Shown here one piece after another: positions 1 to 47,807 of a DNA stretch of 64,000 bases (position 1 is the first letter of the stretch; each line of letters opens with the position of its first letter). The translations under genes were made by a program, and so were the position numbers. The stretch is from Deltaproteobacteria bacterium. Its GTDB lineage: Bacteria > Myxococcota_A > Polyangia > JAAYKL01. The stretch covers positions 5,338 to 69,337 of the forward strand of contig JAUVDV010000021.1 of assembly GCA_030595125.1 (NCBI GenBank). The letters run 5' to 3'. The notes under the pieces are model-generated. The model did no database searches. It saw nothing but the letters and a program-made list of their open reading frames with translations, and was not told the DNA's origin.

Positions 1-878
1 TCATCTGTGCCCTTCAGGGCTGTGAGATAGGTTTTGAGGCTGTTGGTGATCGGGCTGTCGCCCTGTGCCGCGTGTATCTCATCGAGGAGGTCCAGCGGCA
101 TCGGAGAGGCGCTGGAGGTCCAGCTTCTGATGACCCACTCGAGTCGGTCGGGCTGTTTCAGCTCCCGCGCCAGCGTTGTGTTGAACCCGCTGATCTCCAG
201 CAGGAGCGCCACGTCCAGGGTGCCCGCCGAGATCTTGAAGTCGAAGTCCTGGATCTTGCCGTCGAGCAAGCTGGCGGCATGCTGGAATTTTTTGGCGGCC
301 AGCGCCTTCTCGATGACCTCGACCACCAGGCTGGATGTCCATCCGGAGGACGCGCCGCCCAGCTCAATGGGAATTGTTGTGTCGTCTTGGGATTTGAGAA
401 CTGCCCCGCATCCGGAGCAGTGAACATCGCCGGATCTTGAGGGTGTCCGGCATTTCCTGCACATGTGACCCGTGCCGATATCGGTGTTGCAATGCGGGCA
501 TTTTGGAGTGCCGGCCGCGATGGGGATTCGACAGGCGGGACAGTTGATCATGGCGCCGGTGGGTCTCATGGGGCGTGACGGAAAACGGCTCTCCTCGAGA
601 AAGACCATCTCGTGACTGCCCACCCGCACCCGGTCCTTGTGTTTGAGCGGCGCGGCGTCGAAGAGAGGCTCGTTGTTTACGAGGGTGCCGTTTCTCGAGC
701 CCAGGTCCTCGATGGTCGCCTCCCTGTCGGCGATGTGTATCTTGATGTGTTGCCTGGAAACCAGTGGGTCTTCCAGTGTCAGGTTGCACGACGGTGAGCG
801 ACCGATCAAGAACATCCCCGGAGCGAGGTCGATCTCCTGAAAAATGAACTTCAGTCGGTACTTCTTCTTCTTTTCCAA
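1..878 (-). CDS. FHA-domain protein with two Cys4 zinc-ribbon motifs (3'-partial, continues beyond window start)
   Basis: Manual minus-strand translation gives YRLKFIFQEIDLAPGMFLIGRSPSCNLTLEDPLVSRQHIKIHIADREATIEDLGSRNGTLVNNEPL (canonical FHA) then CPACRIPIAAGTPKCPHC and CRKCRTPSRSGDVHCSGCG. Probable TTG start at 878-876 (only in-frame start before the FHA core). No stop before position 1. Confidence 0.6.
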   Translation of the reverse strand, partial: MEKKKKYRLKFIFQEIDLAPGMFLIGRSPSCNLTLEDPLVSRQHIKIHIADREATIEDLGSRNGTLVNNEPLFDAAPLKHKDRVRVGSHEMVFLEESRFPSRPMRPTGAMINCPACRIPIAAGTPKCPHCNTDIGTGHMCRKCRTPSRSGDVHCSGCGAVLKSQDDTTIPIELGGASSGWTSSLVVEVIEKALAAKKFQHAASLLDGKIQDFDFKISAGTLDVALLLEISGFNTTLARELKQPDRLEWVIRSWTSSASPMPLDLLDEIHAAQGDSPITNSLKTYLTALKGTD

Positions 879-1007
879 TGCCCACCTGAAAAATATGGAT
901 GCATCGCTATTCTACATAGATGGTTACTGCTCGGATAGGGGGAATGGTTCACGAAGGGCGTTTTTTGTTTTGGCAGGAATCCTGCCGTTTCGTCTTTGAT
1001 GCCGCGC

Positions 1008-1150
1008 CCTGATGAGGGCGCGGTCAGGATGAGCTTGGGTCCAGTGAAGCCAGTGAAGCCACCGCCCAAGCCCGCAGGGCTTGCGAAAGCGCATCGTGGC
1101 CGCGGGTTTTATACCCGCGGGAGAAGGGCGCGGTGAACAGGCATGTCAGC
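1008..1150. repeat. REP-like multi-hairpin intergenic repeat, copy A
   Basis: Three palindromic modules (gcgccctgatgagggcgc; aagcccgcagggctt; ccgcgggttttatacccgcgg) also present at 4600-4760 and 47689-47795. Confidence 0.55.
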
Positions 1151-1171
1151 AGGGCTTGATCTAGGGGGAAT

Positions 1172-2377
1172 CTAGAAAAGGTCGTCGATGTCGTCCTTGG
1201 AGCCCTTATCTTCTTTCTTGGGCGCGGGCTCATCTTTATCTTTCTCTTTTTCTTCGCTTCCCTTCTTTTTCTTGTACTTGCCGGTGACCGAATGAGTTGA
1301 GTCGACCTTGGTTGCGCCCGGCCCCGTCTGCGCCTCACCGGTGTAGCCGTCGATCACCGAGGACTGGTGGTCGGTGAGTCCTTCCCCACCACCGGAGGTC
1401 ACCGAGTCGACCATGCTCGAGATGTCATCCGCAACCGCACCCGTGTCGCGGCCCTTGTTTGCTCGGAGATCGCCCAGGTACGTGGCCGTAATCGCTGCGG
1501 AGAAGCGGAGTCCGTAGGCGCCGAAGAAGGCTGAACGATCAATGCCGTCTGCATAGGTATCCTCGTCGCGCCATGCGACCTTGTCCAGGTCGCCCTTGCT
1601 GTCGAAGGATTCCTGGCCCTCGACCCCGAAGCGTCCCTCCAGGGAGCCGAGGAAATCCATGAAGCTGATGTCGGTCTGGAACGAGTCCTTTCGAAAAGCG
1701 CGCAGGCGCTTCCAGAAGCGACCGTCGATGAAGAAAAGGTACTCCACGTACTTTCCGGCATCCCAGACCAGCATGGATTCGTCGTTGTTATGCGTGAACT
1801 CATCGGAGATCATGTGTGACTCAAAGCCTGTGCGCTGACCCTTGAACTCCACGAAGCTCCTGGTCATCCTGGAGAGTTCCCGGATCATTTTGGTGCGGAT
1901 GGCGTCCTCTGCCAGCGCGTCTCCGGCAGCTGCGGACAGTTCTTCCGAGTAGGTATCCCTTACCCTGAACTCGAAGATGGATACCACCTTCCGGACGGTC
2001 ATGCCCCACATGAGGCCCTCCATCTGATCCGCGATTCCGTCCGTGTAGGGGATCGCCGGCGCGCTGCCGCCCTTTTTCCCCTTTTTCCCCTTCTTTTTCT
2101 TCTTTCCCTTTTTCTTGGCTTGCTTCACCGGTGGGGCCTCACCGTACTGGGAACCCGGGATTATCAGCGCCTCGTCGTCCTCCGTGAGGGCGGAGGTCAA
2201 GCTGCTTCCGCCGCCACCACCGCCGCCGATATTGGGTGCGTCGAACGGTTTGGAGTCCTTCTTGGCGTCGTCTCCCGTTGAGATCTCGACTTTCGCCTTG
2301 CCGCCTCCGCAGCCCACGGAGATGAACAGCGTGGCGATAATGACGATAAATACCTTTAACCCAGTTCTTTCGATCAT
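1172..2377 (-). CDS. hypothetical lipoprotein with Lys-rich tracts
   Basis: 401-aa ORF. Signal peptide plus lipobox (LFISVGC). Gly run and KKKGKKKKKGKKGKK tract. No recognisable catalytic motif. Confidence 0.55.
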   Translation of the reverse strand: MIERTGLKVFIVIIATLFISVGCGGGKAKVEISTGDDAKKDSKPFDAPNIGGGGGGGSSLTSALTEDDEALIIPGSQYGEAPPVKQAKKKGKKKKKGKKGKKGGSAPAIPYTDGIADQMEGLMWGMTVRKVVSIFEFRVRDTYSEELSAAAGDALAEDAIRTKMIRELSRMTRSFVEFKGQRTGFESHMISDEFTHNNDESMLVWDAGKYVEYLFFIDGRFWKRLRAFRKDSFQTDISFMDFLGSLEGRFGVEGQESFDSKGDLDKVAWRDEDTYADGIDRSAFFGAYGLRFSAAITATYLGDLRANKGRDTGAVADDISSMVDSVTSGGGEGLTDHQSSVIDGYTGEAQTGPGATKVDSTHSVTGKYKKKKGSEEKEKDKDEPAPKKEDKGSKDDIDDLF

Positions 2378-2477
2378 TACTTCCTCCTCTTTGCCGGAAG
2401 ATATTGCCTACCTATAACCGGAATGCATTTTGCGCATCTTACCATCTGTCGAGGCGACGCCAAGTGATCTTTGCGCT

Positions 2478-3695
2478 CTAGTTTGACAATGCCGCTCGTT
2501 TCCTGTCGGCCTTTACCGTGGGGAGAAGGACGCGCGCCATCTTAACCGATTGGGATTCGTCCGCGTAAAAGGTGTCCCAGGCATACTGGTACATCTTCTG
2601 GAGCTTGTCCGGCGACATCTTCGCGGGCTGAACGATCACCTCGCCGGCCGTGTAGCGTTTCCAGTCCTTGTGCAGTATCCGTCCCTGGGATTCGTAGTCG
2701 TCGAACGCCTTGGTATGGGGGAAGGGTGTTATCACCGTGAACTCGGCCAGGTCCATTTCGATTTCGAGGAGGAAGTCGACGAGTCGCTTTATGTAATCCT
2801 CATCGTGATCGTCCAGGCCCAGGAGGATTGTCCCCTCCACGAATATGCCGTGATCCTTGAGCCGTCGAATACGCTTTTTGATGAAATCTGAGGTATCGAA
2901 GACTGCCTGGTACACCCACCATTGACCCGCTTTTACGGCGGCCTCGAGCACATCGTCGTCGTCCTCCACCGGGTGCGAGATGATGTGTCGATCGAGGGGA
3001 GCCAGGGCCTCGAAGAGTTCGAGTTCCCACTTCTTGTCCTGGGCCAGGGAATTGTCGACGAAGAAGAGCTTGGAGTTGGGTATGGATTTGACCTCCTCGA
3101 CCACCTTGTCGATCGGGCGGGGGCGAAAGGACCGTCCGCCCAGATACCTGACGCAGCACGGGTAGCAGTTGAACTTGCAACCCCTCGATGCGTGAATCAG
3201 ATCGGGCATCTGCAGGCCGCGGTAGGCGTACTTCTCGCGATCGAGAATAGAGCGGCGCGCCGTCCCGACGGTCTCGATCGGGGCGGGATCGTTGAGGTAG
3301 TTGTAGACCTTGCGGAGTTTTCCGGCCTCCAGGTCGGCCAGGACTTTCTCTGTACGGCCCTCCGCCTCTCCGAGGAAAACCGAGTCCGCGTGTTCTGCGG
3401 TCTCCTCGGGGTGGAGCGCGGTTGAGATGCCTCCGAAAATCACCGGGATGCCTCGCCCTCGAAACTCGTCCGCGATCTCCCATCCTCGGGGCGCCTGGCA
3501 GGTGAGCATCATGGAGATGAACACCACGTCCACGTCCTGAGTGAAATCAATTTTTTCCACGTTCTCGTCGGTGAAGAGCAGCTCGTGCTCGTCGGGAATC
3601 GTGGCGGCAAAAACCACGGGACCGTGCGGGGGGAGGTGGAACTCTCGCTGATTGGGCAGCTTGGGCCATCTGGGGTATATCAGTCGAATCTTCAT
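2478..3695 (-). CDS. B12-binding-domain radical SAM protein
   Basis: N-terminal cobalamin-binding-like region (VVFISMMLTCQAP...GIPVIFGG) followed by a radical-SAM CxxxCxxC-type cluster (CKFNCYPCC). Start taken at MKIRLIYP. Confidence 0.7.
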   Translation of the reverse strand: MKIRLIYPRWPKLPNQREFHLPPHGPVVFAATIPDEHELLFTDENVEKIDFTQDVDVVFISMMLTCQAPRGWEIADEFRGRGIPVIFGGISTALHPEETAEHADSVFLGEAEGRTEKVLADLEAGKLRKVYNYLNDPAPIETVGTARRSILDREKYAYRGLQMPDLIHASRGCKFNCYPCCVRYLGGRSFRPRPIDKVVEEVKSIPNSKLFFVDNSLAQDKKWELELFEALAPLDRHIISHPVEDDDDVLEAAVKAGQWWVYQAVFDTSDFIKKRIRRLKDHGIFVEGTILLGLDDHDEDYIKRLVDFLLEIEMDLAEFTVITPFPHTKAFDDYESQGRILHKDWKRYTAGEVIVQPAKMSPDKLQKMYQYAWDTFYADESQSVKMARVLLPTVKADRKRAALSN

Positions 3696-3836
3696 GCACG
3701 ACTTATAGATCGACGCTTCGGTCCGGGCAATGGAGTCAGTGCGCATTTTTCACCGGAGTCCGTCATGTTTTTTTACTTATTGAACAGTGCATAATCCACA
3801 ATGCAGGTGTAGTATTTTGGCGAAGGAGGACAATAT

Positions 3837-4536
3837 GATTGGAAAAGAATTATTGTGGGGTGCGCTGTTATGCGCGGGTCTGATCGCGGCTGTGCCGTAT
3901 TTCACGGCCTGTGATGGCGGCGATGGTAGAGATAGTTCGGGTGATTCGGACGCCGACGCCGACAGTGGAACTGACACGGATACGGAATCGGATACGGAAT
4001 CGGATACGACACCCGTGTGCCCCGACTACGATTGGGGCCCGGCAAGCGGATTGACCCTCAACGAGAATATTGGGAACTGGACCTTCAACGGATACTTCGA
4101 TGAGAACGCCAACTGGGTGGTCGATCCGGAGGAGGAGGTGGAGAAAACCTTCACGATGGAGGAGATCGCCTGCTATTCTGGCGCCCAGTCGCTGGTCATA
4201 CTGCTGGATGACTTGTCGTGACCATATTGCCCTGATTGGTTCAATCAGTTTGCCCAGGTTTACGCAGAGCTATTCGCCGAAGACAACGGGGTTGTCCTCT
4301 TCGCCGTGACCTCCGGGATCGGCGCCAATTCCCCGGCCATGAACCTTGTAGCCGAGCAGGCGCGCAAGCATTTCCCGGGCGCCTATTTCACAAACACCAG
4401 GCTCCTGACCCTGACCGGCTCGGGCGCAGTTCCTTTCGGCGCCGTCATCGATCTGGAGACTCTCGAGGCCATCGAGATAGGGCCCACCAGCCCGTATAGT
4501 ATTCTCCAGGCGGTCAAGGCGGCCAACGCCAATTAG
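3837..4536 (+). CDS. TlpA/redoxin-like thiol:disulfide oxidoreductase lipoprotein, probable selenoprotein (in-frame UGA at 4219-4221)
   Basis: ORFs 3787..4221 and 4306..4536 are in the same frame, separated by a single TGA. Read-through gives ...SLVILLDDLS-U-PYCPDWFNQFAQVYAELFAEDNGVVLFAV..., matching the redoxin pattern (vvLdFWASWCGPCr..P.l..ly..y...gv.vlgv) with U replacing the first Cys of CxxC. N-terminus is a lipoprotein signal (LLCAGLIAAVPYFTAC) plus a TD-repeat linker. Confidence 0.55.
4229..4253 (+). promoter_or_regulatory. bSECIS-like hairpin downstream of UGA
   Basis: 10 nt after TGA: 6-bp perfect stem ctgatt/aatcag (4232-4237 / 4243-4248) with apical loop GGUUC, plus a 2-bp lower stem. 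Loop G lies ~20 nt from the UGA, within the bacterial SECIS spacing range. Confidence 0.45.
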
Positions 4537-4599
4537 ATAGCTAATCCTCTATCCGCTACACTTTACCTCCAGTAAATCTTTCGACCGACCTCGCACCGC

Positions 4600-4760
4600 G
4601 CCGTGAACGACGCGGCAACGATGCGGCTGCGCCGCAAGGCCGTGCGGCCTCGCGCCCGAAGTAGCCCGCAGGGCTTGCCGATGGATATGGAAGCCCGATT
4701 CAGATCGGCAGGCATCGTTGCCGCGGTGTTTACACCGCGGGCGGAGGCGGGCAGAATGAG
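4600..4760. repeat. REP-like multi-hairpin intergenic repeat, copy B (between convergent genes)
   Basis: Shares the cccgcagggcttgc and ccgcggtgtttacaccgcgg modules with copies at 1008-1150 and 47689-47795. Spurious ORFs overlap it. Confidence 0.5.
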
Positions 4761-4790
4761 TCGTGGATGGACGAGACGCTATTTTGACCC

Positions 4791-5555
4791 CTACAGGCCG
4801 AAGCACTCCCAGTCCGAGCCCATGGATGGGGTTGTCTGGCACTCGTTGTCCGAGTTGCAACCGGTGTACAGGCACTCGTTTGAAACGCAGTTGTAATTGT
4901 CCGCGTCATAGGCAGCGCCGCCGCCGCCACCGCAGTCCGCCGGTGTAGTGCAGGGGGCAGCGCAGTACGCGTAACCCGATCCGCCGGGATCCTGGCAGGT
5001 GTAGCCCGAAACCAGCTGATCGCATTCCGAGTTGTTGTTGCACCCTGTGTAGACGCACCCGTTTGAGTTGCAGTCGTAATTGTCCGCGTCGTAGGCCGCC
5101 GAGCCCAGATCGCAGTCGGCCGAGGTGCTGCAGGGTGGCAGGCAGCCGGGGATTCCCCATCCGGAATCAACGCAGACGTAGTTCATGCTGACAAAGACCA
5201 GATCGCATTCGGCGCTGGAGTTGCATCCGGTGTATTCGCAGAAACCGTCGGAGTTGCAGTTGTAGTTGTCGGCATCGGTTATTGCGTTGGAGGTTGCGGG
5301 GACGCAGTTTGCGGCCGTCAAGCAGGTTTGTGCACAGTAGGGGTTATCGGTGTCGGAGTCGGTGTCCGAGTCTGTGTCCGAGTCTGTGTCCGAGTCCGTG
5401 TCCGAGTCTGTGTCCGAGTCACTGTCGGAATCGCTATCGGAATCGCTATCGGAATCGGAACTGCTGTCTCCGGCGCCGTCGGTCTGACAGCCGAAGAAGA
5501 TCAGAGCCGTGGTCATGGAGAATGCGAGGATTCCCAAGATTGTTATCGTCTTCAT
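4791..5555 (-). CDS. secreted lipoprotein with (S/T-D)n linker and four Cys-rich repeats
   Basis: Signal/lipobox MKTITILGILAFSMTTALIFFGC, then SDSDSD...TDSDTD, then four copies of ~AADC..AYDADNY(N/D)C.SNGC.YTGCN..SEC. Start at MKTIT (5555) avoids overlap with the upstream hydrolase. Confidence 0.6.
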   Translation of the reverse strand: MKTITILGILAFSMTTALIFFGCQTDGAGDSSSDSDSDSDSDSDSDSDTDSDTDSDTDSDTDSDTDSDTDNPYCAQTCLTAANCVPATSNAITDADNYNCNSDGFCEYTGCNSSAECDLVFVSMNYVCVDSGWGIPGCLPPCSTSADCDLGSAAYDADNYDCNSNGCVYTGCNNNSECDQLVSGYTCQDPGGSGYAYCAAPCTTPADCGGGGGAAYDADNYNCVSNECLYTGCNSDNECQTTPSMGSDWECFGL

Positions 5556-5560
5556 TTCGA

Positions 5561-6388
5561 TCACTTCCCTTTCATTTCGTCCAAAAACTTCCATATGATG
5601 CGCGACGCCTCGTCTGGATTCTCTTCGACGGGGGAATGGCCGCAATTATTTATGACATGGAGTTCTCCGCCGGGGATGAGGCTTTCCAATTGCCTGCCCA
5701 CCTCCAGCGGGACCAGCGCGTCTTTCTCGCCCCAGAGGATGAGGGTGGGGCAGCTCACTTTTTCGACAATCTCGCCCACCGGTGACGGATTGGCCGTGGC
5801 CCGCAGAGCCTCGAGGGCGGACGCTCTCTTGTCGGCGAAGGTGTCGAACAGTCGGAGTACCTTGCCCCGGTCCATCCGGGAGGAATCAAAGAAAACGTCG
5901 TTCTCAAAATAGTCGACGAACATCTTGCGACCGTACATCCGAAACAATAGCTCGCCCAGAATCGGCTTGAGGGGCAGGCGTCCCTTGAGCGGGACCGGGT
6001 ACGGAAGACTGATAGCATCCACGAGCACCAGGCGCTTCACCCTGTCGGGGTATGTGGCAGCGAGTGTTATTGAGATACCCCCGCCCATGGAGTGTCCCAG
6101 GAGATCGAACCTGTCCAGGCCGAGGGAATCGGCCGTTCCGATCACCGAACGCGCGTACCCGTCCCAGGTGGGTTTGAACGTGCTGCTCGCGGTGGAGTCT
6201 CCGCAGTTCGGCAGGTCGGGGGCGATGGCGCGAATACCTTTGGGTATGCGTTCGCGCAGCTCATTGAAGGTCTCGCCGGACGCGAACAGGCCGTGGATCA
6301 TCAGGAGAGGGTTGCCCTCGCCGGATTCCGACAGGCCGATTTCTCCGTGTGGGGTGGAGATTGTCTTTTTGCTTGCCATGATGCTCAT
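5561..6388 (-). CDS. alpha/beta-fold hydrolase
   Basis: Nucleophile-elbow motif GHSMGG, catalytic His near the C-terminus (CGHSPVEENPDE). Length typical for the family. Confidence 0.75.
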   Translation of the reverse strand: MSIMASKKTISTPHGEIGLSESGEGNPLLMIHGLFASGETFNELRERIPKGIRAIAPDLPNCGDSTASSTFKPTWDGYARSVIGTADSLGLDRFDLLGHSMGGGISITLAATYPDRVKRLVLVDAISLPYPVPLKGRLPLKPILGELLFRMYGRKMFVDYFENDVFFDSSRMDRGKVLRLFDTFADKRASALEALRATANPSPVGEIVEKVSCPTLILWGEKDALVPLEVGRQLESLIPGGELHVINNCGHSPVEENPDEASRIIWKFLDEMKGK

Positions 6389-6416
6389 TGTATCGCGGTT
6401 GTTGTCTTGTGATGGT

Positions 6417-6902
6417 ATGAAACAAATCATGAGATCGGAAGCATTTAATATAGAGAGCGAGGATCAGACGCGGGAGTTCGGCGAGCGCCTCGCGGCCCTG
6501 CTCGAGCGCGGGGATGTGGTGGGGCTTCGAGGCGATCTCGGAGCGGGCAAGACTTTTCTCGTCGGAGTGGTCGCGCGGGCGGTCGGTGTGCCGGACGACG
6601 TACCGGTCAACAGTCCCACCTTCACGCTGATAAACGAGTACTACGGCGGCCGGTTCCCGCTGTTCCACATGGACCTGTACCGACTCGGGAGTCCATCGGA
6701 GCTGTACGATCTCGGTTTGTGGGAATACTACGATGGGGATGGGGTGTGCATGGTGGAGTGGTGCGATCGTTTTTCGGATCTGTGGCCGGACCAGGCGCTT
6801 GTTCTGACCATCGAACTCGGTGAGGGGGAGAATCGAACGATCCTGGCGACCGGAGAGGGGCGCGGCGCCCGGCTGGCGGAGCAGCTGGGAAAGGCCGGCT
6901 AA
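6417..6902 (+). CDS. tsaE: tRNA threonylcarbamoyladenosine biosynthesis protein TsaE
   Basis: Walker A GDLGAGKT, plus SPTFTL and FHMDLYRL motifs diagnostic of TsaE/YjeE. The long upstream extension of the ORF is antisense to the hydrolase gene. Confidence 0.75.
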   Translation: MKQIMRSEAFNIESEDQTREFGERLAALLERGDVVGLRGDLGAGKTFLVGVVARAVGVPDDVPVNSPTFTLINEYYGGRFPLFHMDLYRLGSPSELYDLGLWEYYDGDGVCMVEWCDRFSDLWPDQALVLTIELGEGENRTILATGEGRGARLAEQLGKAG

Positions 6903-6910
6903 CGTGAACC

Positions 6911-7819
6911 CTAGAGCTTGAAATCGAGATCCTTTAGAAATTCAGCCAGATTCTTCGGCAGTGGTGACTCCGGGTGCAGATCGCGGTTTCGGTCGTTTGG
7001 ATGTCGCATGACGATGGACGTTGCGTGGAGGAACATCCGCCCCGGTTCATTCACCGTTGCGTTGCCGTAGAGCGGATCGTCGACGATGGGAAAGCCCGAA
7101 ATGGCCAGATGAGCGCGGATCTGGTGCCGCAAGCCACGATGGATCGTCGCCTCCACCAGAAGAAATTCGCCGTGCTCCTCGACCGGGCGAACAAGGGTTG
7201 TGGCGGGAGTGCCGGACGGATCGCGGCGGACTTTTCTTCCTCCCCGATCGGTCGGTCCAAGAGGAAAATCGATGACCGGGGGCAGCCGGTCGCCCGTCGG
7301 TTTCACGAGGGCGGCGTAACGCTTCTCGATCTGATCGTTTCGTTGCATTTCCAGCAGGCGCTCGAAGGTCTGAGCATTTCTGGCGGCCACGAGGATCCCG
7401 GAGGTCTCTGTGTCCAGGCGATGGATCAGGCCGCTGTCGCCGGAACTCCTGCCGATGGTAGCGCATTCGGGAAAACGGGACGCGATGGCTCCGGCCAGTG
7501 TTCCCGGTTCGTTAGGGGAAAGGGGCACGGTCGGAACGCCCGGGGGTTTGACAACCGCCGCAAGGTCCGCGTCCACGTAAACTGTTTCGAAATCCAGCTG
7601 CGGATCGGGCAGGGCGGTCCAATTCTTTGGGGCCGGATCCGTGTGGATTTCCACCAGGTCGTCTTCTTTTACCAGGTCGCTCTTGCGCGCGTATCCGCCG
7701 TTCAACGTCACGCTGCCCGAGATGATGAGCCTCTGGGCGCGTCTTCGCGAGAGATCGGAGACGTTGGCCGACAGCCACACATCCAGACGCGTGGGTGAGT
7801 TCTGTCTTTCTGCGGTCAT
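6911..7819 (-). CDS. RluA-family 23S rRNA pseudouridine synthase (RluD-like)
   Basis: S4-like N-terminal domain (RLDVWLS...), catalytic HRLD motif, conserved GRMFLHATSI region. Confidence 0.8.
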   Translation of the reverse strand: MTAERQNSPTRLDVWLSANVSDLSRRRAQRLIISGSVTLNGGYARKSDLVKEDDLVEIHTDPAPKNWTALPDPQLDFETVYVDADLAAVVKPPGVPTVPLSPNEPGTLAGAIASRFPECATIGRSSGDSGLIHRLDTETSGILVAARNAQTFERLLEMQRNDQIEKRYAALVKPTGDRLPPVIDFPLGPTDRGGRKVRRDPSGTPATTLVRPVEEHGEFLLVEATIHRGLRHQIRAHLAISGFPIVDDPLYGNATVNEPGRMFLHATSIVMRHPNDRNRDLHPESPLPKNLAEFLKDLDFKL

Positions 7820-8006
7820 GGCCAGGTGGAAAGGAGGCATCGTTTGGGGAGAGTGAACTTGTGGAGGGGCATAGTCAATGAAGACCTTGTCGTACCAGAT
7901 GCGGAGTATGGTTTACAAAAAACCAATCACGTTGTTTCGAGCTTGGTGATAAAATGTCGTTAGAGAGGATGCAGCTTGTTCGGGTTTGGTTTTTTGGTGG
8001 GAAAAA

Positions 8007-9971
8007 ATGAAGAAGAAAACCCTGTTAATTTTGCTGTTCGTTTGTTCGATGGGCGTTGGGGCCGTTGCTTGCTCGAAGAGTCACGGCAACGACGATCCGG
8101 ACGGCGGAGACGCATCGACGGATACTGACACGGGCACGGATACTGACACGGATACGGGGGAGGAGTGGTGTCCGAAACTGGAGACTTCCTGCGAGGCGCC
8201 GGAAGAACTGGAGGTCTGTGATGTCGTCAAGCTGGGCGCGCCTAGGTTGATCTTCCCGCTGTCGGGCAGGCACATCAGGGATCGACGACCGCAGATTATC
8301 TGGGAGGAGGCTGACGGCGCAACGCAATACCGGCTGGAGATCGCCCGGGACCGCCAGTTTACAGATGTTGTTTATCGCTCTGCCGATAACGAGCCGTACC
8401 CAGGATACGACGACCGGCTGCATCACATCGTGAGCTGCGACCTCGACTGCGGTGTTCACTTCTTTCGCGTCAAGTCTGTGACCTCGCCCGAGTGCGAGTC
8501 GGGAGCGTCATCGTACACGTGGGAGATGTTTGTAGGCATGGCCCCCGGCGACCTCGACCGCGACGGCGTGCCGGACATTATGTACTGGAAGATCATCGAA
8601 CCCGGAGGGGAGATGCAGCCGTACCTTGTTCAGGGCTGGGCATTCTTCGACCTGGACGAGAAAGGCGGGCAGGTTGCTGAAGCGGAGAAGGTCGTGGAGT
8701 TCGAGGTTGAGGGCAGCACAATCGTGCTCAAGGGTTCTACATATCAAGGAGATGTAAACGGAGATGCCTCTACAGATGTTAGCGTGGAAATTATTTTCCT
8801 GGATGCGGCGTATGAATTTGAAACCGCAATAATTGAAACGTATGTGTTTAGCCAATTGCGTTCGGGAGTTTTACAAGGAAAGAATGATGCTATTGGATTG
8901 TTTCAAGGAAGTGTAGGACAACTTTACAATACTTTGTACTCAAACAGATATTCGGACGTCAACGGTGACGGCTATTCAGACATAGCGATTTCATTTTACG
9001 AAGATTATGGAGACACTGGATTCACAGACAAATTGTTGATTTTCTATGGGACTACTGAGACCGTTTCGGTTTTGGACTTGTCAACCGCCGACGTAGTCAT
9101 TCCGTGCCCCATAGGATGCGACTCGGATACAAACTTTGGCAGGCCGGCTAGCCAGGTAGACATCAACGGCGACGGTTTTGCAGACTTGTTCTCAGCATTG
9201 GTGGAATATTCATCCGGTATTTTCGACGCGGGATTATCACACAGCGCGATTATCTTCGGCGATGAGAATTTGCAATCGCAAGTAGATGTGATGACAGAGG
9301 GAGCCATTATTTCATCCCCTCAGTATTCGATCATCTCTGGCGTTTGGGATCTTGGGGATTCTGTATTTCTCGGAAGTGGAGCCGTCAATCCAATGGGTGA
9401 CATTGATTTTGACGGCTATCCTGAGTTGGGCGGGTACCTGCTCGATGCATATGACACAACACAATCTCCACTTGTGGAGACCGGCGGGTGGGTGGTTTTC
9501 GATGACTTTTTCGGATCAGGCCAGCATATGTTACCGGACGTGATGGATACTATTATCGTGGCAGATTTTGACACATACATTGACTATTCAAACACAGAAA
9601 CTATTAGTTTTAATCATCCTTCTGGAGATGTCGATGGGGATGGCATTGATGATTTCATTTTGCTAACAGGACAGGCAAACTCGGGTTCTCCCACTTATCC
9701 GGGACGATATTTCTATCTGTATGGTGAAGAAGACTGGGATGATTTCATCCCTTTGTCTACCATTTCTGCAAATGAGGTTATTATCCCAATCGATGCTTTT
9801 TGCTTGGTAACAACCGACATTGATGGTGACGGAATAGCAGAGTCTATTGGGGCGAGTACATCAGGGAATCACACTGTACAGCTTTCCGCATCTGGGGAAA
9901 CAGTTGAACTTAACTGGGACTGGTCGGATGCCGTCGATTTCTACGGGCCGGTAATTCCAGAAATTTACTAA
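8007..9971 (+). CDS. secreted lipoprotein with TD-repeat linker, FN3-like region and FG-GAP/VCBS-type Asp-rich repeats
   Basis: MKKKTLLILLFVCSMGVGAVAC lipobox; DASTDTDTGTDTDTDTGEE linker; repeated DVNGDGYSDIAI / DINGDGFADLF / DVDGDGIDDFIL / DIDGDGIAESIG calcium-binding-like loops. Confidence 0.7.
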   Translation: MKKKTLLILLFVCSMGVGAVACSKSHGNDDPDGGDASTDTDTGTDTDTDTGEEWCPKLETSCEAPEELEVCDVVKLGAPRLIFPLSGRHIRDRRPQIIWEEADGATQYRLEIARDRQFTDVVYRSADNEPYPGYDDRLHHIVSCDLDCGVHFFRVKSVTSPECESGASSYTWEMFVGMAPGDLDRDGVPDIMYWKIIEPGGEMQPYLVQGWAFFDLDEKGGQVAEAEKVVEFEVEGSTIVLKGSTYQGDVNGDASTDVSVEIIFLDAAYEFETAIIETYVFSQLRSGVLQGKNDAIGLFQGSVGQLYNTLYSNRYSDVNGDGYSDIAISFYEDYGDTGFTDKLLIFYGTTETVSVLDLSTADVVIPCPIGCDSDTNFGRPASQVDINGDGFADLFSALVEYSSGIFDAGLSHSAIIFGDENLQSQVDVMTEGAIISSPQYSIISGVWDLGDSVFLGSGAVNPMGDIDFDGYPELGGYLLDAYDTTQSPLVETGGWVVFDDFFGSGQHMLPDVMDTIIVADFDTYIDYSNTETISFNHPSGDVDGDGIDDFILLTGQANSGSPTYPGRYFYLYGEEDWDDFIPLSTISANEVIIPIDAFCLVTTDIDGDGIAESIGASTSGNHTVQLSASGETVELNWDWSDAVDFYGPVIPEIY

Positions 9972-10062
9972 GATCCTGAAAGAAGAAGGGCGGATGGGGT
10001 CAGTGCAAGACTCTGGTTCCTGGACCGGTTCCTGGATGAAAACGCCTGCGTTGTGATGCCGG

Positions 10063-10195
10063 GTGGACGAGTGGACTGTGGACGGAGTGGACTGTGATGG
10101 ACGGAGTGGACTGTGGACGAAGTGGACTGTTATTTGAGTGATTCGGTCTTGCTTTGAGTGTCCACACCGTCCACACCGTCCATGTTGTCCACTTG
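10063..10195. repeat. tandem 16-bp repeats followed by their inverted complement (long imperfect hairpin)
   Basis: 4x GGACGGAGTGGACTGT-like units (10063-10132), then 4x GTCCACACC-like units (10152-10190). Confidence 0.6.
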
Positions 10196-10419
10196 AGTAG
10201 GATCGAATGTCCTCGCAGTGCCGCGTCCGATCGCCGGTCCATGACATGAATTCCCATGGTCGAGCGTGGTGTATCCCCAGCGCCACAACACAAACCGGCT
10301 CGCGATTGGAAAAATACGCAAAAGAAATCATTGAGTTATTGTTTGCCTCGATGATGGTATGCTTTTTGTAGCAATGGCAGGCATCCGTGCATCTGCGCAA
10401 AGCCTCGGAGGATTTGTCC

Positions 10420-11739
10420 ATGAGGAATATTGATAATACTCGTTACTGGTGTCTTGTTGCGGCAATATCCGTGTTCTTTGTTGTATGGACCGGATGCGGT
10501 CCCAGCAAAGACGAACGCGAGCTGGAGGCGATAAAGCTCCACAGCGCGCCGGTGACCGAGGTGGTGTTCTCTCCGGACGGAATGATCCTGGCCAGCGCGA
10601 GCGAAGACGACACGGTGCGGTTGCTGGATGTGACCGACCTGCATACCAACTTCGATCCGGGATCAACCTCGACGTTCATCCCTCACGAGCTGCCCTCCAG
10701 CCCCTTTATCGGACACGGCGCCGGCTTTCACTCGCTGGACTTTTCCCCGCTTGGAGATCAGATCGCCGCCGGATGCACCGACTTCGCTTTGGGGGAGATC
10801 GTGAAGGTGTGGGATGTCGAGACTGCGGAGCGGCTGGCCGTCCTGACAGGTCATACCGGCCCGGTGCTCTCGCTTGACTACGATCCACTGGCGCAGGTTC
10901 TCGCCGTCGGCGGTGGACGCTTGCTGGAAGCGGGCGAGGTCACCGTGGGGGATTGGTCGGGAACTGCGAGTCCGGTCGAGCTCGGCGATGCCCGGGGACC
11001 GGTCACCGATGTGGCCTTTTCGCCGGACGGATCGTTGCTCGCGACGGCCTGGGGAGACGGCGTGGTGCGCGTGTGGAACGTATCGGACTGGACCCCGGCG
11101 TACGATCTTGCCGTGGATGATCATATCCCTTATTCCGTTGCATTCTCACCCGACGGCGCCCGTCTGGTCTCGGCCGGGGACGATTCCGGACCGGGGTTCA
11201 ACGGCCACGGCGGCGTCATTCGCATATGGGACGCCATCGACGGAGAGTTGCTGTCATCGATGGATCTCGGCACTACACCCATCCATGCCATCTCCTACTC
11301 ACCGGAAGGATCGCTCATCGCCGCAGGTGGAGATGCCCAGAAGATCATTGTCGTGGACGCCTGGAACTCGGAGGTGCAGTTCACTCTGCGGGGGCATACC
11401 GCGCCGGTCAACAGCCTGGATTTTTCATCCAACGGTCAGCTGCTGGCCAGCGGTGCCGACGACAACTTCATCAGGTTCTGGTACATGGGCGACATGATCG
11501 GGGAGACCTGCGATGACGGCATCGACAACGACGGCGACGGCTGGACCGACGCCGACGATCCTAATTGTACACCTGGCGACAGGGAGACCGGTTTCGGGGA
11601 CAGCGAGTGCAACGACAATATTGACAACGATGACGACGGGCTCACCGATTCGGCCGATCCCGACTGCGTGGACGGCTTTGACGACAACGAGAGCGGCGAC
11701 TCCGCAGACGCGGGTCCTGACAGCGGAGACGGTGGATAG
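10420..11739 (+). CDS. WD40-repeat lipoprotein with C-terminal Cys/Asp-rich metal-binding-like repeats
   Basis: Multiple WD40 units (SPDG...LASAS.DDTVRLWD-type); lipobox VVWTGC; C-terminal CDDGIDNDGDGWTDADDPNC and ECNDNIDNDDDGLTDSADPDC motifs. Confidence 0.75.
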   Translation: MRNIDNTRYWCLVAAISVFFVVWTGCGPSKDERELEAIKLHSAPVTEVVFSPDGMILASASEDDTVRLLDVTDLHTNFDPGSTSTFIPHELPSSPFIGHGAGFHSLDFSPLGDQIAAGCTDFALGEIVKVWDVETAERLAVLTGHTGPVLSLDYDPLAQVLAVGGGRLLEAGEVTVGDWSGTASPVELGDARGPVTDVAFSPDGSLLATAWGDGVVRVWNVSDWTPAYDLAVDDHIPYSVAFSPDGARLVSAGDDSGPGFNGHGGVIRIWDAIDGELLSSMDLGTTPIHAISYSPEGSLIAAGGDAQKIIVVDAWNSEVQFTLRGHTAPVNSLDFSSNGQLLASGADDNFIRFWYMGDMIGETCDDGIDNDGDGWTDADDPNCTPGDRETGFGDSECNDNIDNDDDGLTDSADPDCVDGFDDNESGDSADAGPDSGDGG

Positions 11740-11753
11740 AAAGGAGTGAGAGT

Positions 11754-12092
11754 GTGAAGAATTACTATAGAGCGTCTTTTTTGATGATGATGATCGTGTT
11801 GCTTTTCGCAGTGTCTGCCTGCCACGAGGAGGAGGAGGAGAGCATCTGCGATCTGTACTGCTCCGCTTCGGAGGATTGCAGCTACGTGAGCGGCCAGATG
11901 TTCAGCTGGAGTGAGTGCCAGGACCAGTGTAACGAGGCCATGGAGCGCCATGAATCGATAGGCTGCGGGGACAGGATGGCGGACTTGTACTACTGCCTGA
12001 TCGATCTTCCGTGCCCGAGCTGGAACGATTACGGGGCAAGATGCGCCGCAGAGATCGATTACCTGGACCTCTGCGTGGGTGGGACTTCTTGA
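11754..12092 (+). CDS. small Cys-rich lipoprotein
   Basis: Signal/lipobox LLFAVSAC; 12 Cys in 112 aa. Confidence 0.45.
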   Translation: MKNYYRASFLMMMIVLLFAVSACHEEEEESICDLYCSASEDCSYVSGQMFSWSECQDQCNEAMERHESIGCGDRMADLYYCLIDLPCPSWNDYGARCAAEIDYLDLCVGGTS

Positions 12093-20736: not shown

Positions 20737-22005
20737 TTGAGAGAACGTATGAAGACGGACATCGTTCTTTGCGGCTACGACATGATCACGCCGCTGGGCG
20801 AAGGTCTCGACGATCAGTGGGATGCGTTCGCCGCCGGAAAGTCGGGGATAGACCGGGTGGGTCGATTCGAAGTCTCGGACGACTATCCTGTCAGGGTTTC
20901 CGGCGAGGTGCCAGCGGTCGACTTTTCAAGGTACGATTTCTGGAGCGAGCGCAACGCTGCCAACTGGTTCTCGCCTGTCATTTTTCACTCAATGCTGGTG
21001 GCGCAAAAAGCGCTTTCCCATGCGGGCATGACCATCGACGACGACAACGCCGGGCGCGTGGGCATCACGTTCTCCTCGGCCATCGGCGGTCTGGATGCCA
21101 TGATCAAGGCCGAGTCCAGGCTCCAGGAGGGGCTCACCCCGCACCCGTTCACCAACCCCAACGGATGTCTCAACCTCGTGGGCGGCAAGGTGTCCATCCA
21201 CACCGGCGCCAGGGGGCCGATCTTCAGCCCGGTGGCGGCCTGCGCAACGGGGAGCGCATCGGTGGCGACGGCGGCCATGTTGCTGCAGACCGGCAGGGCG
21301 GACGCGGTGATCGCCGGGGCCTGCGATTTTCCGGTCATCCCTTCGCTCCTGGCTTCCTTCGCGTCCATGAACGGCGCGTTTCAGAGCCGCAAGACAGACG
21401 ATCGCAGTCACGACGAACCCGCCAAAGCATCGCGTCCGTTCTCGGTCGATCGGAAGGGTTTCGTGGTCTCCGAGGGGGCGGCCGCTATCCTTGTCGCCAC
21501 CCGCGGATTCGCCGACTCGAACGGCCTGCCGGTGAGGGCGGTGATAGAGGGCATCGGCATGACGTCAGACGCGAGGCACTACGTTGCGCCGGCACTACCG
21601 ACCATCACCAAGTGTATTGAGGAGGCTATTTCCGACGCGGGTGTCAGGCCTCGGGACATTCAGGCCGTCAACGCCCACGCGGCGTCCACCGGAGTTGGAG
21701 ATGCCACCGAGGTCAAGGCGCTTAAGGCGGTCTTTGGCGATGATTTTCAGCTCCCCGTTTCCGCCAACAAGTCCCAGATCGGACACACAATGGGCGCGTC
21801 GAGCGCCATCGAACTGATCATGACTTCGGAGGGTATCCGAAAATCTGCCCTGCTTCCCACGATCAATCACGAGCCCGATCCAAAGCTGGACATCGACGTT
21901 GTCTCCGAGGGTTCCCGCCCAATGGAACATCACCGAGTGCTCTCCAATTCCTTCGGCTTCGGCGGCTGCAACGTCTGCCTGGTCGTGGGAAAGGGCGACG
22001 TCTGA
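20737..22005 (+). CDS. beta-ketoacyl-ACP synthase II-like (FabF family)
   Basis: Active-site Cys (VAACATGSASV), catalytic His residues (NAHAASTGVGD, IGHTMGASS), C-terminal NSFGFGGCNV. Confidence 0.8.
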   Translation: MRERMKTDIVLCGYDMITPLGEGLDDQWDAFAAGKSGIDRVGRFEVSDDYPVRVSGEVPAVDFSRYDFWSERNAANWFSPVIFHSMLVAQKALSHAGMTIDDDNAGRVGITFSSAIGGLDAMIKAESRLQEGLTPHPFTNPNGCLNLVGGKVSIHTGARGPIFSPVAACATGSASVATAAMLLQTGRADAVIAGACDFPVIPSLLASFASMNGAFQSRKTDDRSHDEPAKASRPFSVDRKGFVVSEGAAAILVATRGFADSNGLPVRAVIEGIGMTSDARHYVAPALPTITKCIEEAISDAGVRPRDIQAVNAHAASTGVGDATEVKALKAVFGDDFQLPVSANKSQIGHTMGASSAIELIMTSEGIRKSALLPTINHEPDPKLDIDVVSEGSRPMEHHRVLSNSFGFGGCNVCLVVGKGDV

Positions 22006-47673: not shown

Positions 47674-47688
47674 GGCAACTCCGGTCTT

Positions 47689-47795
47689 TATGCCGCGCCC
47701 TGAATAGGGCGCGGTCAGGATGACTGAAGCCCGGTGGGCTTGCGCGGAGCGCATCCTGACCGCAGCATTCATGCTGCGGGAGAAGGGCTTGGTAC
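47689..47795. repeat. REP-like multi-hairpin intergenic repeat, copy C (between convergent dacB and dipeptidase genes)
   Basis: gccgcgccctgaatagggcgcggtcaggatga...aagcccggtgggctt...ccgcagcattcatgctgcgg gagaagggc; third hairpin shows compensatory changes relative to copy A. Confidence 0.55.
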
Positions 47796-47807
47796 GCTTC
47801 CTCCGTC

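What the first reader, a model, noticed from the sequence alone, without database searches (positions are those of the whole stretch)
1008..1150. Dispersed REP-like element with three hairpin modules showing compensatory base changes (3 copies: 1008-1150, 4600-4760, 47689-47795)
All three copies sit at gene 3' ends (two between convergent genes) and share ordered modules: gcgccctgaWWagggcgc; aagcccgcagggctt or gcccggtgggc; and a third stem that differs in sequence but preserves pairing (ccgcgggtttTATAcccgcgg vs ccgcagcatTCatgctgcgg vs ccgcggtgtTTacaccgcgg). Structure-preserving covariation argues for selection on RNA/DNA secondary structure (REP/BIME-like terminator-stabiliser elements or a small ncRNA family), not chance similarity.
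Basis: seen in the sequence. Interest (0 to 1): 0.55.

Follow-up and report, generated by a model that had tools for sequence, protein, structure and literature searches.

The report
REPIN-like mobile palindromic repeat family
The three GC-rich hairpin clusters are copies of a small mobile DNA repeat, made of two inverted palindromic units, that related genomes carry on both sides of a single-strand-DNA (Y1/IS200-type) transposase gene; the element is real but belongs to a familiar kind, found here in an uncultured myxobacterial lineage.

Summary
All three copies exist at about the stated coordinates, far above chance (covariance-model E 6e-19 to 2e-15), and their hairpins covary.

Each copy is a head-to-head doublet of one roughly 75-100 nt unit: hairpin B, hairpin C, an 8-nt linker CATCNTNN, then a REP-like hairpin CCGCG...CGCGG. 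Module 1 is the REP hairpin of an inverted left unit.

- **Spread:** 15 genuine matching loci in five Myxococcota MAGs (a 16th, in Pseudorhodoferax, is a chance match) and 8 metagenome contigs, none in viral contigs or Rfam.
- **Position:** at least 11 of about 14 separate intergenic sites lie between convergent genes.
- **Mobility:** two window copies are absent from close relatives. Copy 3 is missing in a strain 97% identical in flanking DNA. Copy 2 is a 251-nt insertion relative to MAG CSMAG_2956.
- **Transposase link:** in four related contigs a 137-144 aa Y1 HUH transposase (Pfam Y1_Tnp) is flanked by inverted copies of the same units. One has REP hairpins differing by 0-2 bases from the window's.

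Verdict: a REPIN/REP-BIME-like non-autonomous element moved by an IS200-clade Y1 transposase. It is a new member of a known kind, not a terminator or ncRNA family. Interest is low to moderate.

The parts
983..1165 (+). Copy w1: a full doublet (inverted left unit plus right unit, with tails)
   Evidence: Covariance-model hits at 1065-1139(+) 81 bits and 983-1085(-) 26.1 bits. The tail GGTGAACAGGCATGTCAGCA is shared with L008 and L034. DNA fold z -4.1.
1002..1023 (+). w1 P1: the REP hairpin of the inverted left unit (CCGCGCCCT-GATG-AGGGCGCGG).
1024..1031 (+). w1 left linker TCAGGATG, the 5' strand of stem P2. It pairs with 1092-1099 (CATCGTGG): 6 Watson-Crick pairs, one T·G and one G·G mismatch.
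1069..1081 (+). w1 central hairpin B (AGCCC-GCA-GGGCT), shared by both units.
1082..1093 (+). w1 hairpin C (TGCG-AAAG-CGCA)
1092..1120 (+). w1 linker CATCGTGG plus REP hairpin P3 (CCGCGGGT-TTTAT-ACCCGCGG).
4534..4784 (+). Copy w2: a 251-nt insertion relative to the empty site in CSMAG_2956. It folds end to end into one long hairpin.
   Evidence: Empty site in L035 and L036. Fold z -5.4. L011 and L016 are 251-nt copies at other loci, 96.8% identical to each other.
4576..4654 (-). w2 inverted left unit: B' GGCCGCACGGCC, C' TGCGGCGCAGCCGCA, linker CATCGTTG, REP CCGCGTCGTTCACGGCGCGG
   Evidence: 44.9 bits, E 8e-10; alignment A4
4659..4760 (+). w2 right unit: B 4663-4675, long C hairpin TGCCGAT...ATCGGCA, linker CATCGTTG, REP P3 4721-4740
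   Evidence: 67.1 bits
47674..47807 (+). Copy w3: the whole spacer between the DacB and C69 peptidase stop codons. Strain L021 has only 18 nt here.
   Evidence: Covariance-model hits at 47724-47798(+) 76.9 bits and 47674-47744(-) 24.6 bits. Fold z -4.8.
47693..47714 (+). w3 P1: the REP hairpin of the inverted left unit (CCGCGCCCT-GAAT-AGGGCGCGG)
47715..47722 (+). w3 left linker TCAGGATG. Together with the two flanking GG/CC pairs it forms a perfect 10-bp stem P2: GGTCAGGATG (47713-47722) with CATCCTGACC (47752-47761).
47728..47753 (+). w3 hairpins B (AGCCC-GGT-GGGCT) and C (TGCGC-GGA-GCGCA)
47752..47779 (+). w3 linker CATCCTGA plus REP hairpin P3 (CCGCAGCA-TTCA-TGCTGCGG)
   Evidence: This stretch matches the REP flanking the L034 transposase at 96.8% over 31 nt.

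Best explanation
Each copy is a REPIN-like, non-autonomous mobile DNA element.

**Anatomy**
- It consists of two copies of one unit joined head to head in inverted orientation.
- The unit reads: hairpin B (AGCCC-NNN-GGGCT), hairpin C (TGC...GCA), linker CATC(C/G)T(G/T)(A/G), REP-like hairpin (CCGCG-variable-CGCGG), tail.
- The whole element is therefore an imperfect palindrome. It can fold as one long hairpin, or as a "clover" of P1, P2 (linker paired with linker, enclosing B and C) and P3.

**Shown**
- The doublet architecture and the covariation of the hairpins.
- Dispersal to many intergenic sites in several Myxococcota genomes.
- Presence/absence of two of the window's copies in close relatives.
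- In related genomes, a lone Y1 HUH transposase gene of the IS200/IS605 sequence family flanked by inverted copies of the same units.

**Inferred**
- The Y1 transposase, acting in trans, recognises the REP hairpins with their 5' linker in single-stranded DNA (for example the lagging-strand template). It then excises and reinserts the doublet, as described for RAYT/REPIN and IS608.
- Pairing is conserved because the enzyme needs the hairpin.
- Copies accumulate between convergent genes because insertions there are least harmful.

Any effect on transcript 3' ends would be secondary.
For: 1. **Inverted doublet.** Every strong + unit has an adjacent weaker unit on the opposite strand. This holds in the window (44.9, 26.1 and 24.6 bits) and in 10 further loci. 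The left and right linkers match at 8 of 8 positions in L003 and the w2-type copies, and at 7 of 7 right-aligned positions in w3/L001.
2. **Covariation.** 98.7% of cells pair, 6 pairs show double changes, and 0 of 500 shuffles reach the score. At least 10 variants of the REP stem top all stay paired.
3. **Family spread.** 15 genuine loci in 5 MAGs, 7 of them distinct loci in CSMAG_220, plus 8 metagenome contigs. L011 and L016 are 96.8% identical over 251 nt at different loci of one genome.
4. **Mobility.**
   - L021 is 97.3% identical in flanking DNA, with an identical DacB protein, yet has an 18-nt spacer where the window has 134 nt.
   - L035 and L036 (88% identical flanks) have 7 nt where the window has the 251-nt w2.
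   - Contigs L022 and L035 end at or near element boundaries.
5. **Transposase link.**
   - L030: ORF 817-1251 (Pfam Y1_Tnp 69.6 bits; HUH motif HVHLL; catalytic YIRNQ aligned to IS608 TnpA) lies between two identical doublets.
   - L032: unit(-), tnpA, two units(+).
   - L031: two REP(-), tnpA, three REP(+).
   - L034: doublet, tnpA, unit(+). Its REP hairpins differ by 0-2 bases from window P1 and P3.
6. **Context.** At least 11 of about 14 separate sites lie between convergent genes.
7. **Lineage restriction.** No copy was found in 67 kb from relatives whose DacB is 71-77% identical.
8. **Match to published definitions.** The REPIN/RAYT descriptions fit, including asymmetric excision footprints and a "clover" fold (PMC3337134 abstract; PMC3116915).
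Against: - No Y1 transposase gene is present in the 64-kb window or in the roughly 97 kb held from the closest MAGs (motif scans). The link therefore rests on related, not identical, genomes.
- At the place orthologous to L034, CSMAG_220 (L015) has a doublet but no tnpA.
- The transposases fail NCBIfam's RAYT model (19-31 bits against a cut-off of 80). They pass the IS200/IS605 model instead.
- No target-site rule or duplication could be defined. The L021 empty site carries an element-like remnant that I could not reconstruct as a single event.
- The copy number in the source genome is unknown.
- Transposition itself is inferred, not observed.
- At the orthologous site, w3 differs from the CSMAG_220 copy by only 2 of 134 nt, while the flanks differ by 9.3%. 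This hints at an additional constraint or at homogenisation.
Confidence: 0.8

Rival explanations
1. The copies are MITE-like deletion derivatives (left end plus right end, as in PATEs) of an active IS200-type insertion sequence. On this reading they are ordinary selfish elements of a currently transposing IS, not REPINs served by a domesticated, single-copy RAYT.
For: - All four flanked transposases pass NCBIfam's IS200/IS605 model (62-77 bits, cut-off 55) and fail the RAYT model.
- Their PDB sequence matches are IS608 and ISDra2 TnpA; E. coli TnpA-REP is not among the matches at E<=1.
- In L032 the layout is unit(-), tnpA, unit(+). That is exactly a doublet with a gene in its centre, so a doublet looks like an internal deletion.
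- The tnpA contigs are mostly very short, as expected for repeated sequence.
Against: - By established knowledge, IS200/IS605 ends are not inverted repeats of each other. Here the flanking units are inverted, which is the RAYT hallmark.
- The tnpA genes on long contigs are lone genes among housekeeping genes, without tnpB. They carry clusters of 2-3 tandem REPs on their sides.
- Bertels 2017 describes an IS200 "Group 3" that behaves like a RAYT: abundant flanking 16-mers and no duplication.
- The tnpA copy number per genome could not be tested.
Confidence: 0.2
2. The elements are primarily functional RNA structures selected in transcripts: 3' UTR stabilisers, terminators of convergent genes, or a family of small RNAs.
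For: - Most copies sit just after stop codons between convergent genes.
- The predicted folds are very stable.
- w3 is 98.5% identical to its CSMAG_220 orthologue, while the flanking genes are 90.7% identical.
- By established knowledge, E. coli REPs stabilise upstream mRNA, so a secondary role of this kind is plausible.
Against: - No T/U tract follows any hairpin on either strand. The terminator scan finds nothing inside the elements.
- There is no Rfam hit, even at E<=1.
- w1 is antisense to both neighbouring genes, and L015 lies between divergent genes.
- G·T (4) and A·C (3) mismatches are balanced, so neither strand is favoured.
- Two copies are dispensable in close relatives.
- Near-identical copies sit at unrelated loci.
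- The association with a transposase.
Confidence: 0.08
3. The similarity is chance or GC-rich low complexity: ordinary independent terminator-like hairpins.
For: - The window is 54-63% G+C.
- The short motif GCGGGAGAAGGGC, allowing 2 mismatches, is not above chance.
Against: - Covariance-model E-values down to 6e-19.
- The ordered arrangement is shared across 23 genuine loci.
- A 24-base pattern is expected about 0.1 times in 596 Gb but was found 17 times, 16 of them inside Myxococcota MAGs.
- Identity reaches 96.8% over 251 nt between unlinked loci.
Confidence: 0.01

Closest known systems
REPIN / REP-BIME elements with their RAYT (TnpA-REP) Y1 transposases. Examples are Pseudomonas fluorescens SBW25 GI-GIII REPINs and E. 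coli REP/BIME (Bertels & Rainey 2011, PMC3116915; PMC3337134; Bertels 2017, PMC5581495).
   Same: - GC-rich imperfect palindromes with a conserved short sequence directly 5' of the hairpin foot.
- Two palindromes in inverted orientation, forming a longer hairpin or a clover.
- Extragenic, dispersed and also tandemly clustered (L010, L031, L032).
- Presence/absence between strains, with an imperfect footprint.
- A small Y1 HUH transposase gene flanked by inverted copies.
- Copies conserved at orthologous sites.
   Different: - The repeating unit is compound: three hairpins in about 75-100 nt, against a single 20-40 nt REP.
- The sequence 5' of the hairpin is CATC(C/G)T(G/T)(A/G), not GTAG.
- The host is an uncultured Myxococcota lineage, not Gammaproteobacteria.
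- The transposase scores as IS200/IS605 and fails NCBIfam's RAYT model.
- A larger 251-nt subfamily (w2 type) carries extra outer palindromic arms.
IS200/IS605-family insertion sequences (IS608, ISDra2) and their non-autonomous derivatives (PATEs)
   Same: - The transposase sequence family (NF033573 and PF01797 both passed).
- HUH and catalytic Tyr motifs align with IS608 TnpA.
- The ends are hairpins.
- No target duplication is seen.
- There is a weak trend for one strand to lie on the G-rich strand, the lagging-strand template (14 of 19 loci).
   Different: - The units flanking tnpA are inverted copies of each other, which classical IS200/IS605 ends are not.
- No tnpB gene is present.
- The tnpA genes seen on long contigs look single and embedded among housekeeping genes.
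- REPs occur in multiple tandem copies beside the gene.
Other modular palindromic intergenic repeats: pneumococcal BOX, enterobacterial ERIC/IRU, Neisseria Correia elements, Stenotrophomonas SMAG
   Same: - Size of 100-250 nt.
- Modular, stable hairpins in an intergenic location.
- Subfamilies that differ by inserted or deleted modules.
   Different: - Those families either have classical terminal inverted repeats with a TA duplication (Correia) or no known transposase (BOX, ERIC).
- No sequence similarity to them was tested or is claimed.
- Here a Y1 transposase association is shown.

Membership tests
REPIN / REP-RAYT system | A REP: a short GC-rich imperfect palindrome with a conserved short sequence immediately 5' of the hairpin | tested here: met
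   The hairpin is CCGCG-(3-4 variable paired bases)-loop-CGCGG, always preceded by CATC(C/G)T(G/T)(A/G). The motif differs from the classical GTAG.
REPIN / REP-RAYT system | [quoted passage not shown] | tested here: met
   Opposite-strand unit pairs occur at all 3 window copies and at 10 or more other loci. Folds are shown.
REPIN / REP-RAYT system | Extragenic and dispersed at many sites | tested here: met
   All copies are intergenic. There are 3 in this 64 kb and at least 7 distinct loci in MAG CSMAG_220 under a strict 24-base pattern.
REPIN / REP-RAYT system | Tens to hundreds of copies per genome | not testable with these tools
   Only the window and loci of at most 21 kb are available, and the single scan of genome contigs has been used.
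REPIN / REP-RAYT system | A Y1 (HUH) transposase gene flanked by the same REPs in inverted orientation | tested here: met
   Seen in L030, L031, L032 and L034. In L034 the REP hairpins differ by 0-2 bases from the window's. This was not seen in the source genome itself.
REPIN / REP-RAYT system | The transposase belongs to the RAYT sequence family (NCBIfam NF047646 REP_Tyr_transpos) | tested here: not met
   Scores of 19-31 bits against a cut-off of 80 for all four proteins. E. coli TnpA-REP is not among the PDB hits at E<=1.
REPIN / REP-RAYT system | The transposase is single-copy and vertically inherited, like a housekeeping gene | tested here: inconclusive
   On long contigs it is a lone gene among housekeeping genes. 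L034 and L015 share flanks, but L015 lacks the gene. Copy number per genome is unknown.
REPIN / REP-RAYT system | Mobility: insertion or excision polymorphism | tested here: met
   w3 is absent in L021 (97.3% identical flanks). w2 is absent in L035 and L036.
IS200/IS605 insertion sequence or its MITE (PATE) | A Y1 TnpA of the IS200/IS605 family | tested here: met
   NF033573 scores 62-77 bits against a cut-off of 55. PF01797 scores 69.6 bits against 23.
IS200/IS605 insertion sequence or its MITE (PATE) | Left and right ends carry different sub-terminal hairpins on the same strand and are not inverted repeats of each other | tested here: not met
   The units on the two sides of tnpA are inverted copies of one another (L031, L032).
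IS200/IS605 insertion sequence or its MITE (PATE) | Insertion 3' of a fixed tetra- or pentanucleotide, without target duplication | tested here: inconclusive
   No duplication is seen at w2. Across 3 w2-type junctions no common target could be defined.
Intrinsic (Rho-independent) terminator | A GC-rich hairpin followed directly by a T/U tract | tested here: not met
   The scan finds no terminator-like site inside any copy. The only nearby site (971-987) lies next to P1, outside the hairpins.
Any described RNA family (Rfam 15) | A match to a curated covariance model | tested here: not met
   No hit at gathering thresholds across the whole window. No hit in w1 or w2 at E<=1 over 900-4900.

The most novel reading that the evidence does not exclude
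This could be an independent, Myxococcota-specific domestication of an IS200-clade Y1 transposase, separate from the gammaproteobacterial RAYT groups. It would come with an unusually complex three-hairpin REP unit. On this reading the doublets are kept by the host for a function, such as insulating convergent transcription or binding a nucleoid or replication protein. The main hint is that w3 is 98.5% identical at its orthologous site while its flanking genes are 90.7% identical.
Probability: 0.2. Interest if true: 0.55.

Novelty: new member of a known kind. Interest (0 to 1): 0.3.

Why it matters
**Annotation**
- These repeats break assemblies. Several contigs end at them.
- They create spurious ORFs, for example a 45-codon ATG-to-TGA frame across w1 and ORF 4603-4896 across w2.
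- They can supply new stop codons: w2 provides the TAG of the neighbouring gene.

**Biology**
- The result extends REPIN-like doublets with a flanking Y1 transposase to an uncultured Myxococcota lineage. My two full-text searches found no description of REP/RAYT systems in myxobacteria.
- The transposase sits on the IS200 side of the IS200/RAYT divide, which bears on how often such transposases were domesticated.

It is not a new principle. It gives a clean, testable case with defined hairpins, linker variants and two natural empty sites.

Tried and rejected
- **Known RNA family.** Rfam gave nothing at gathering thresholds or at E<=1.
- **Phage or plasmid origin of the window.** Megablast of 1-12000 found nothing in either collection. 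The element pattern is absent from viral contigs.
- **A conserved small ORF.** w1 reads as a 45-codon ORF (ATG at 1000 to TGA at about 1135), but w3 has a stop at codon 6, so it is not coding.
- **Integron attC sites.** The elements are imperfect palindromes at gene 3' ends in one orientation. However, no RYYYAAC/GTTRRRY core sites can be read in the sequence, and the neighbours are convergent housekeeping genes. Rejected by inspection.
- **SECIS element for the neighbouring candidate selenoprotein.** Bacterial SECIS elements lie directly after the UGA, and the other copies are not next to such genes. Rejected.
- **More copies in the window.** The weak covariance-model hits at 35294-35389 and 21222-21283 lie in coding-like sequence.
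- **Empty site for w3 among DacB orthologues.** Relatives at 71-77% identity (L017-L019) do not conserve synteny downstream, so they are uninformative. They do show that the family is absent from 67 kb of those genomes.
- **Exact-protein look-ups of the window's radical SAM gene.** Both failed.
- **Regex scans for a RAYT.** The first patterns required Y..NP and found nothing. They would also have missed the real YIRNQ motif. The transposase was found only by reading L030.
- **L005 (Pseudorhodoferax).** A chance match inside a gene, with no hairpin.
- **P0125.** Its contig could not be fetched.

Full report

Yes. The three stretches share an ordered set of hairpins (alignment A1).

- The motif AAGCCCGNNGGGCTTGC (up to 2 mismatches) matches all three copies on the + strand. 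Four matches were found against 0.19 expected; the fourth is the reverse-strand read of copy 1's palindrome.
- GCGCCCTGANNAGGGCGC is exact in copies 1 and 3 only.
- GCGGGAGAAGGGC with 2 mismatches is not above chance.
- Each copy folds more stably than all 200 dinucleotide shuffles, on both strands (z -3.3 to -5.4).
- Rfam has no family for the copies, either at gathering thresholds over the whole window or at E<=1 over 900-4900.

**2. What is the anatomy?**

I scanned one genome per GTDB species with the 24-base pattern AGCCCGNNGGGCTTGCN{3,33}GCATCNTNNCCGC. It returned 16 loci.
- Fifteen are genuine, and all come from "Deltaproteobacteria", Myxococcales or Polyangia MAGs. Seven are distinct loci in CSMAG_220, a close relative of the source.
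- The sixteenth (Pseudorhodoferax) is a chance match inside a gene.

I built covariance model R1 from 16 units (A2). It recovers the three window copies at 81, 76.9 and 67.1 bits. Next to each of them it also finds a weaker match on the opposite strand: 983-1085, 4576-4654 and 47674-47744, at 26.1, 44.9 and 24.6 bits. The same pairing appears in the other loci.

Each element is therefore a head-to-head doublet of one unit. The unit reads:
- hairpin B: AGCCC-NNN-GGGCT
- hairpin C: TGC...GCA, of variable length
- an 8-nt linker: CATC(C/G)T(G/T)(A/G)
- a REP-like hairpin: CCGCG-variable-CGCGG
- a tail

- Module 1 is the REP hairpin of the inverted left unit.
- Module 2 is the central hairpin B.
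- Module 3 is the REP hairpin of the right unit.

The two linkers pair to form a long-range stem, P2. It reads GGTCAGGATG/CATCCTGACC in w3 and GGCAACGATGC/GCATCGTTGCC in w2, which is three compensatory pairs between the two copies. As single-stranded DNA, w2 folds end to end into one hairpin. w1 and w3 fold as P1, P2 (enclosing B and C) and P3.

**3. Is there covariation?**

Yes. The counts were made on 30 distinct units (A4).
- 98.7% of cells form standard pairs.
- 6 of 16 pairs change on both sides, in 35 cells.
- 0 of 500 shuffles reach the covariation score, and sliding the partners by 1-3 columns abolishes it.
- The stems of B were fixed by my search pattern in the right-hand units. The left-hand units, hairpin C and the REP stem top were free to vary.
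- The stem of C occurs as GC/GC, CGAT/ATCG, TCC/GGA, GAGC/GCTC and GGC/GCC.
- The REP stem top occurs in at least 10 versions, all paired.
- Non-Watson-Crick pairs are balanced: 4 G·T against 3 A·C. Neither strand is favoured as an RNA.

**4. What is the genomic context?**

All copies are intergenic.
- w2 and w3 lie between convergent genes.
- w1 lies between two minus-strand genes and is antisense to both.
- Across the loci, at least 11 of about 14 separate sites are between convergent genes, at least two are between tandem genes, and one (L015) is between divergent genes.
- No hairpin is followed by a T tract, and the terminator scan finds nothing inside the elements.

**5. Are the copies mobile?**

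Two natural empty sites were found.

*w3.* Contig L021 encodes a DacB protein identical to the window's and is 97.3% identical in flanking DNA. There the stop codons of DacB and the C69 peptidase are 18 nt apart, against 134 nt in the window.
- The more distant CSMAG_220 (L001, flanks 90.7% identical) has w3 with only 2 differences in 134 nt.
- Loss in L021 is therefore more parsimonious than gain.
- The 18-nt spacer GGGCTTGCGCGGTGAATG contains 12 nt of the element core, so it looks like a footprint.
- Bertels & Rainey also reported excision footprints that do not span the whole REPIN (PMC3116915).

*w2.* In CSMAG_2956 (L035, and L036 from a read-run assembly; flanks 88% identical) the two convergent genes are separated by 4 nt. 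The window has a 251-nt insert (4534-4784) lying between the last sense codon and the old TGA, and the insert supplies a new in-frame TAG.

*Other evidence.*
- Two further 251-nt copies in CSMAG_220 (L011, L016) sit at unrelated loci and are 96.8% identical to each other.
- Relatives whose DacB is 71-77% identical show no copy in 67 kb.
- The pattern is absent from viral contigs.

**6. What moves them?**

A metagenome scan with the same pattern gave 8 more loci, again as doublets.

In L030, two identical doublets flank a 144-codon ORF.
- Pfam Y1_Tnp scores 69.6 bits (cut-off 23).
- NCBIfam IS200/IS605 scores 66.7 bits (cut-off 55).
- The HUH motif HVHLL and the catalytic YIRNQ align with IS608 TnpA.

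Its homologues show the same arrangement.
- **L032:** unit(-), tnpA, two tandem units(+).
- **L031:** two REP(-), tnpA, three REP(+).
- **L034:** doublet, tnpA, unit(+).

In L034 the hairpins are very close to the window's.
- Its CCGCGCCCTTATGAGGGCGCGG-TCAGGATG and its CATCCTGA-CCGCAGCATTTATGCTGCGG each differ from window P1 and P3 by 0-2 bases.
- L034 also shares both flanks with L015 of CSMAG_220, which has a doublet but no tnpA at that place.

The flanking units are inverted relative to each other, with the linker side facing the gene. That is the RAYT/REP arrangement and not that of classical IS200/IS605 ends.

All four proteins fail NCBIfam's RAYT model (19-31 bits against 80). Bertels et al. 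2017 describe a RAYT-like "IS200 Group 3" lying between the two families (PMC5581495). Whether these proteins belong there was not tested.

**7. Mechanism**

*Shown:* the doublet architecture, hairpin covariation on both strands, dispersal, gain and loss between close relatives, and flanking of a Y1 transposase gene.

*Inferred, from established knowledge of IS608 and of E. coli TnpA-REP:*
- The transposase recognises the REP hairpin plus its 5' linker in single-stranded DNA.
- It cuts nearby and moves the doublet in trans.
- Pairing is maintained because the enzyme needs it.

A weak trend supports this. The full unit lies on the G-rich strand in 14 of 19 loci. That fits a preference for the lagging-strand template but is not significant.

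The high conservation of w3 at its orthologous site could mean selection, homogenisation, or slow decay of a structure-constrained sequence. It keeps a host function possible.

**8. Comparison and verdict**

The element works like a REPIN/REP-BIME and meets most of the defining features. Two qualifications apply:
- The transposase belongs to the IS200/IS605 sequence family, not to the curated RAYT family.
- The transposase was not seen in the source genome itself.

The element differs from known REPINs in three ways:
- a compound three-hairpin unit
- a different 5' motif
- the host phylum

My two literature searches found no description of such elements in myxobacteria.

It is a new member of a known kind. 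Interest is 0.3.

Noticed in passing
window 3787-4536 (+), TGA at 4219-4221: This is a candidate selenoprotein. An in-frame TGA sits in a U-P-Y-C motif (LVILLDDLS*PYCPDWFNQFAQ) of a secreted, thioredoxin-fold-like protein. The TGA and the protein on both sides are conserved in CSMAG_2956 (L035, 88% DNA identity). A hairpin CUGAUUG-GUUC-AAUCAG starts about 13 nt after the UGA and could be a bacterial SECIS. Gene callers split the gene in two.
   Followed up: partly
window 3930-4020, 5333-5460, 25110-25500, 38120-38410, 42990-43420, 54950-55300: Many predicted secreted or lipoproteins carry long (Asp-Thr/Asp-Ser/Gly-Thr)n low-complexity linkers, encoded by 12-18 nt periodic repeats. The same feature appears in the related contigs L018, L019, L032 and L034.
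   Followed up: no
window 38418-39285; 50655-51475 (-); 60057-61857: There are three sets of in-gene tandem repeats. The first has 84-108 nt units encoding D-x-D-x-D-G calcium-binding-type (thrombospondin type 3-like) motifs. The second has 72-75 nt units on the minus strand. The third has about 165 nt units containing a conserved '(F/Y)LVVW' motif, inside a protein of more than 1700 aa that runs off the window.
   Followed up: no
L004 (CSMAG_220), about 726-1010: This copy has a duplicated B module with a 58-nt insertion. It is flanked by a 23-26 nt direct repeat (CGCGGTGGCTATTTCTTGCGGAT) that includes the stop-codon region of the neighbouring gene. This could be an unusually long target duplication or a local rearrangement.
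   Followed up: no
L010 2281-2596 and L007 1-134 (Polyangia MAG BLK3-3.bin.217); L034 60-180: There are tandem arrays of whole + units with a 105-nt period, at least 3 copies, running into contig ends. In L034, three 58-nt tandem copies of a truncated REP arm lie upstream of the doublet. Both are BIME-like clustering.
   Followed up: no
window 1041-1058: There is a 9-nt tandem duplication (CCAGTGAAG x2) inside the left C' hairpin of w1. The CSMAG_220 relative L004 has a single, different version there.
   Followed up: no
L015 (CSMAG_220) 260-441 against L034 1-1080: These are orthologous places, with shared left flank and a shared downstream lipoprotein gene at about 72% identity. L034 carries the Y1 transposase between repeat units. 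CSMAG_220 carries only a doublet fused to an extra inverted REP arm. This suggests loss (or gain) of the transposase gene at a conserved site.
   Followed up: partly
all loci of at least 3 kb: The strand carrying the full, high-scoring unit has positive GC skew in 14 of 19 loci. All three window copies are on the G-rich strand. This is a weak hint (one-sided p about 0.03) of an orientation bias relative to replication.
   Followed up: partly
window 971-987 (+): A terminator-like hairpin with a T-rich tail (TGGCAGGAATCCTGCCG TTTCGTCTTT) sits directly left of w1 on the + strand, although both neighbouring genes are on the minus strand. It could belong to the element's left tail or be a chance match.
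   Followed up: no
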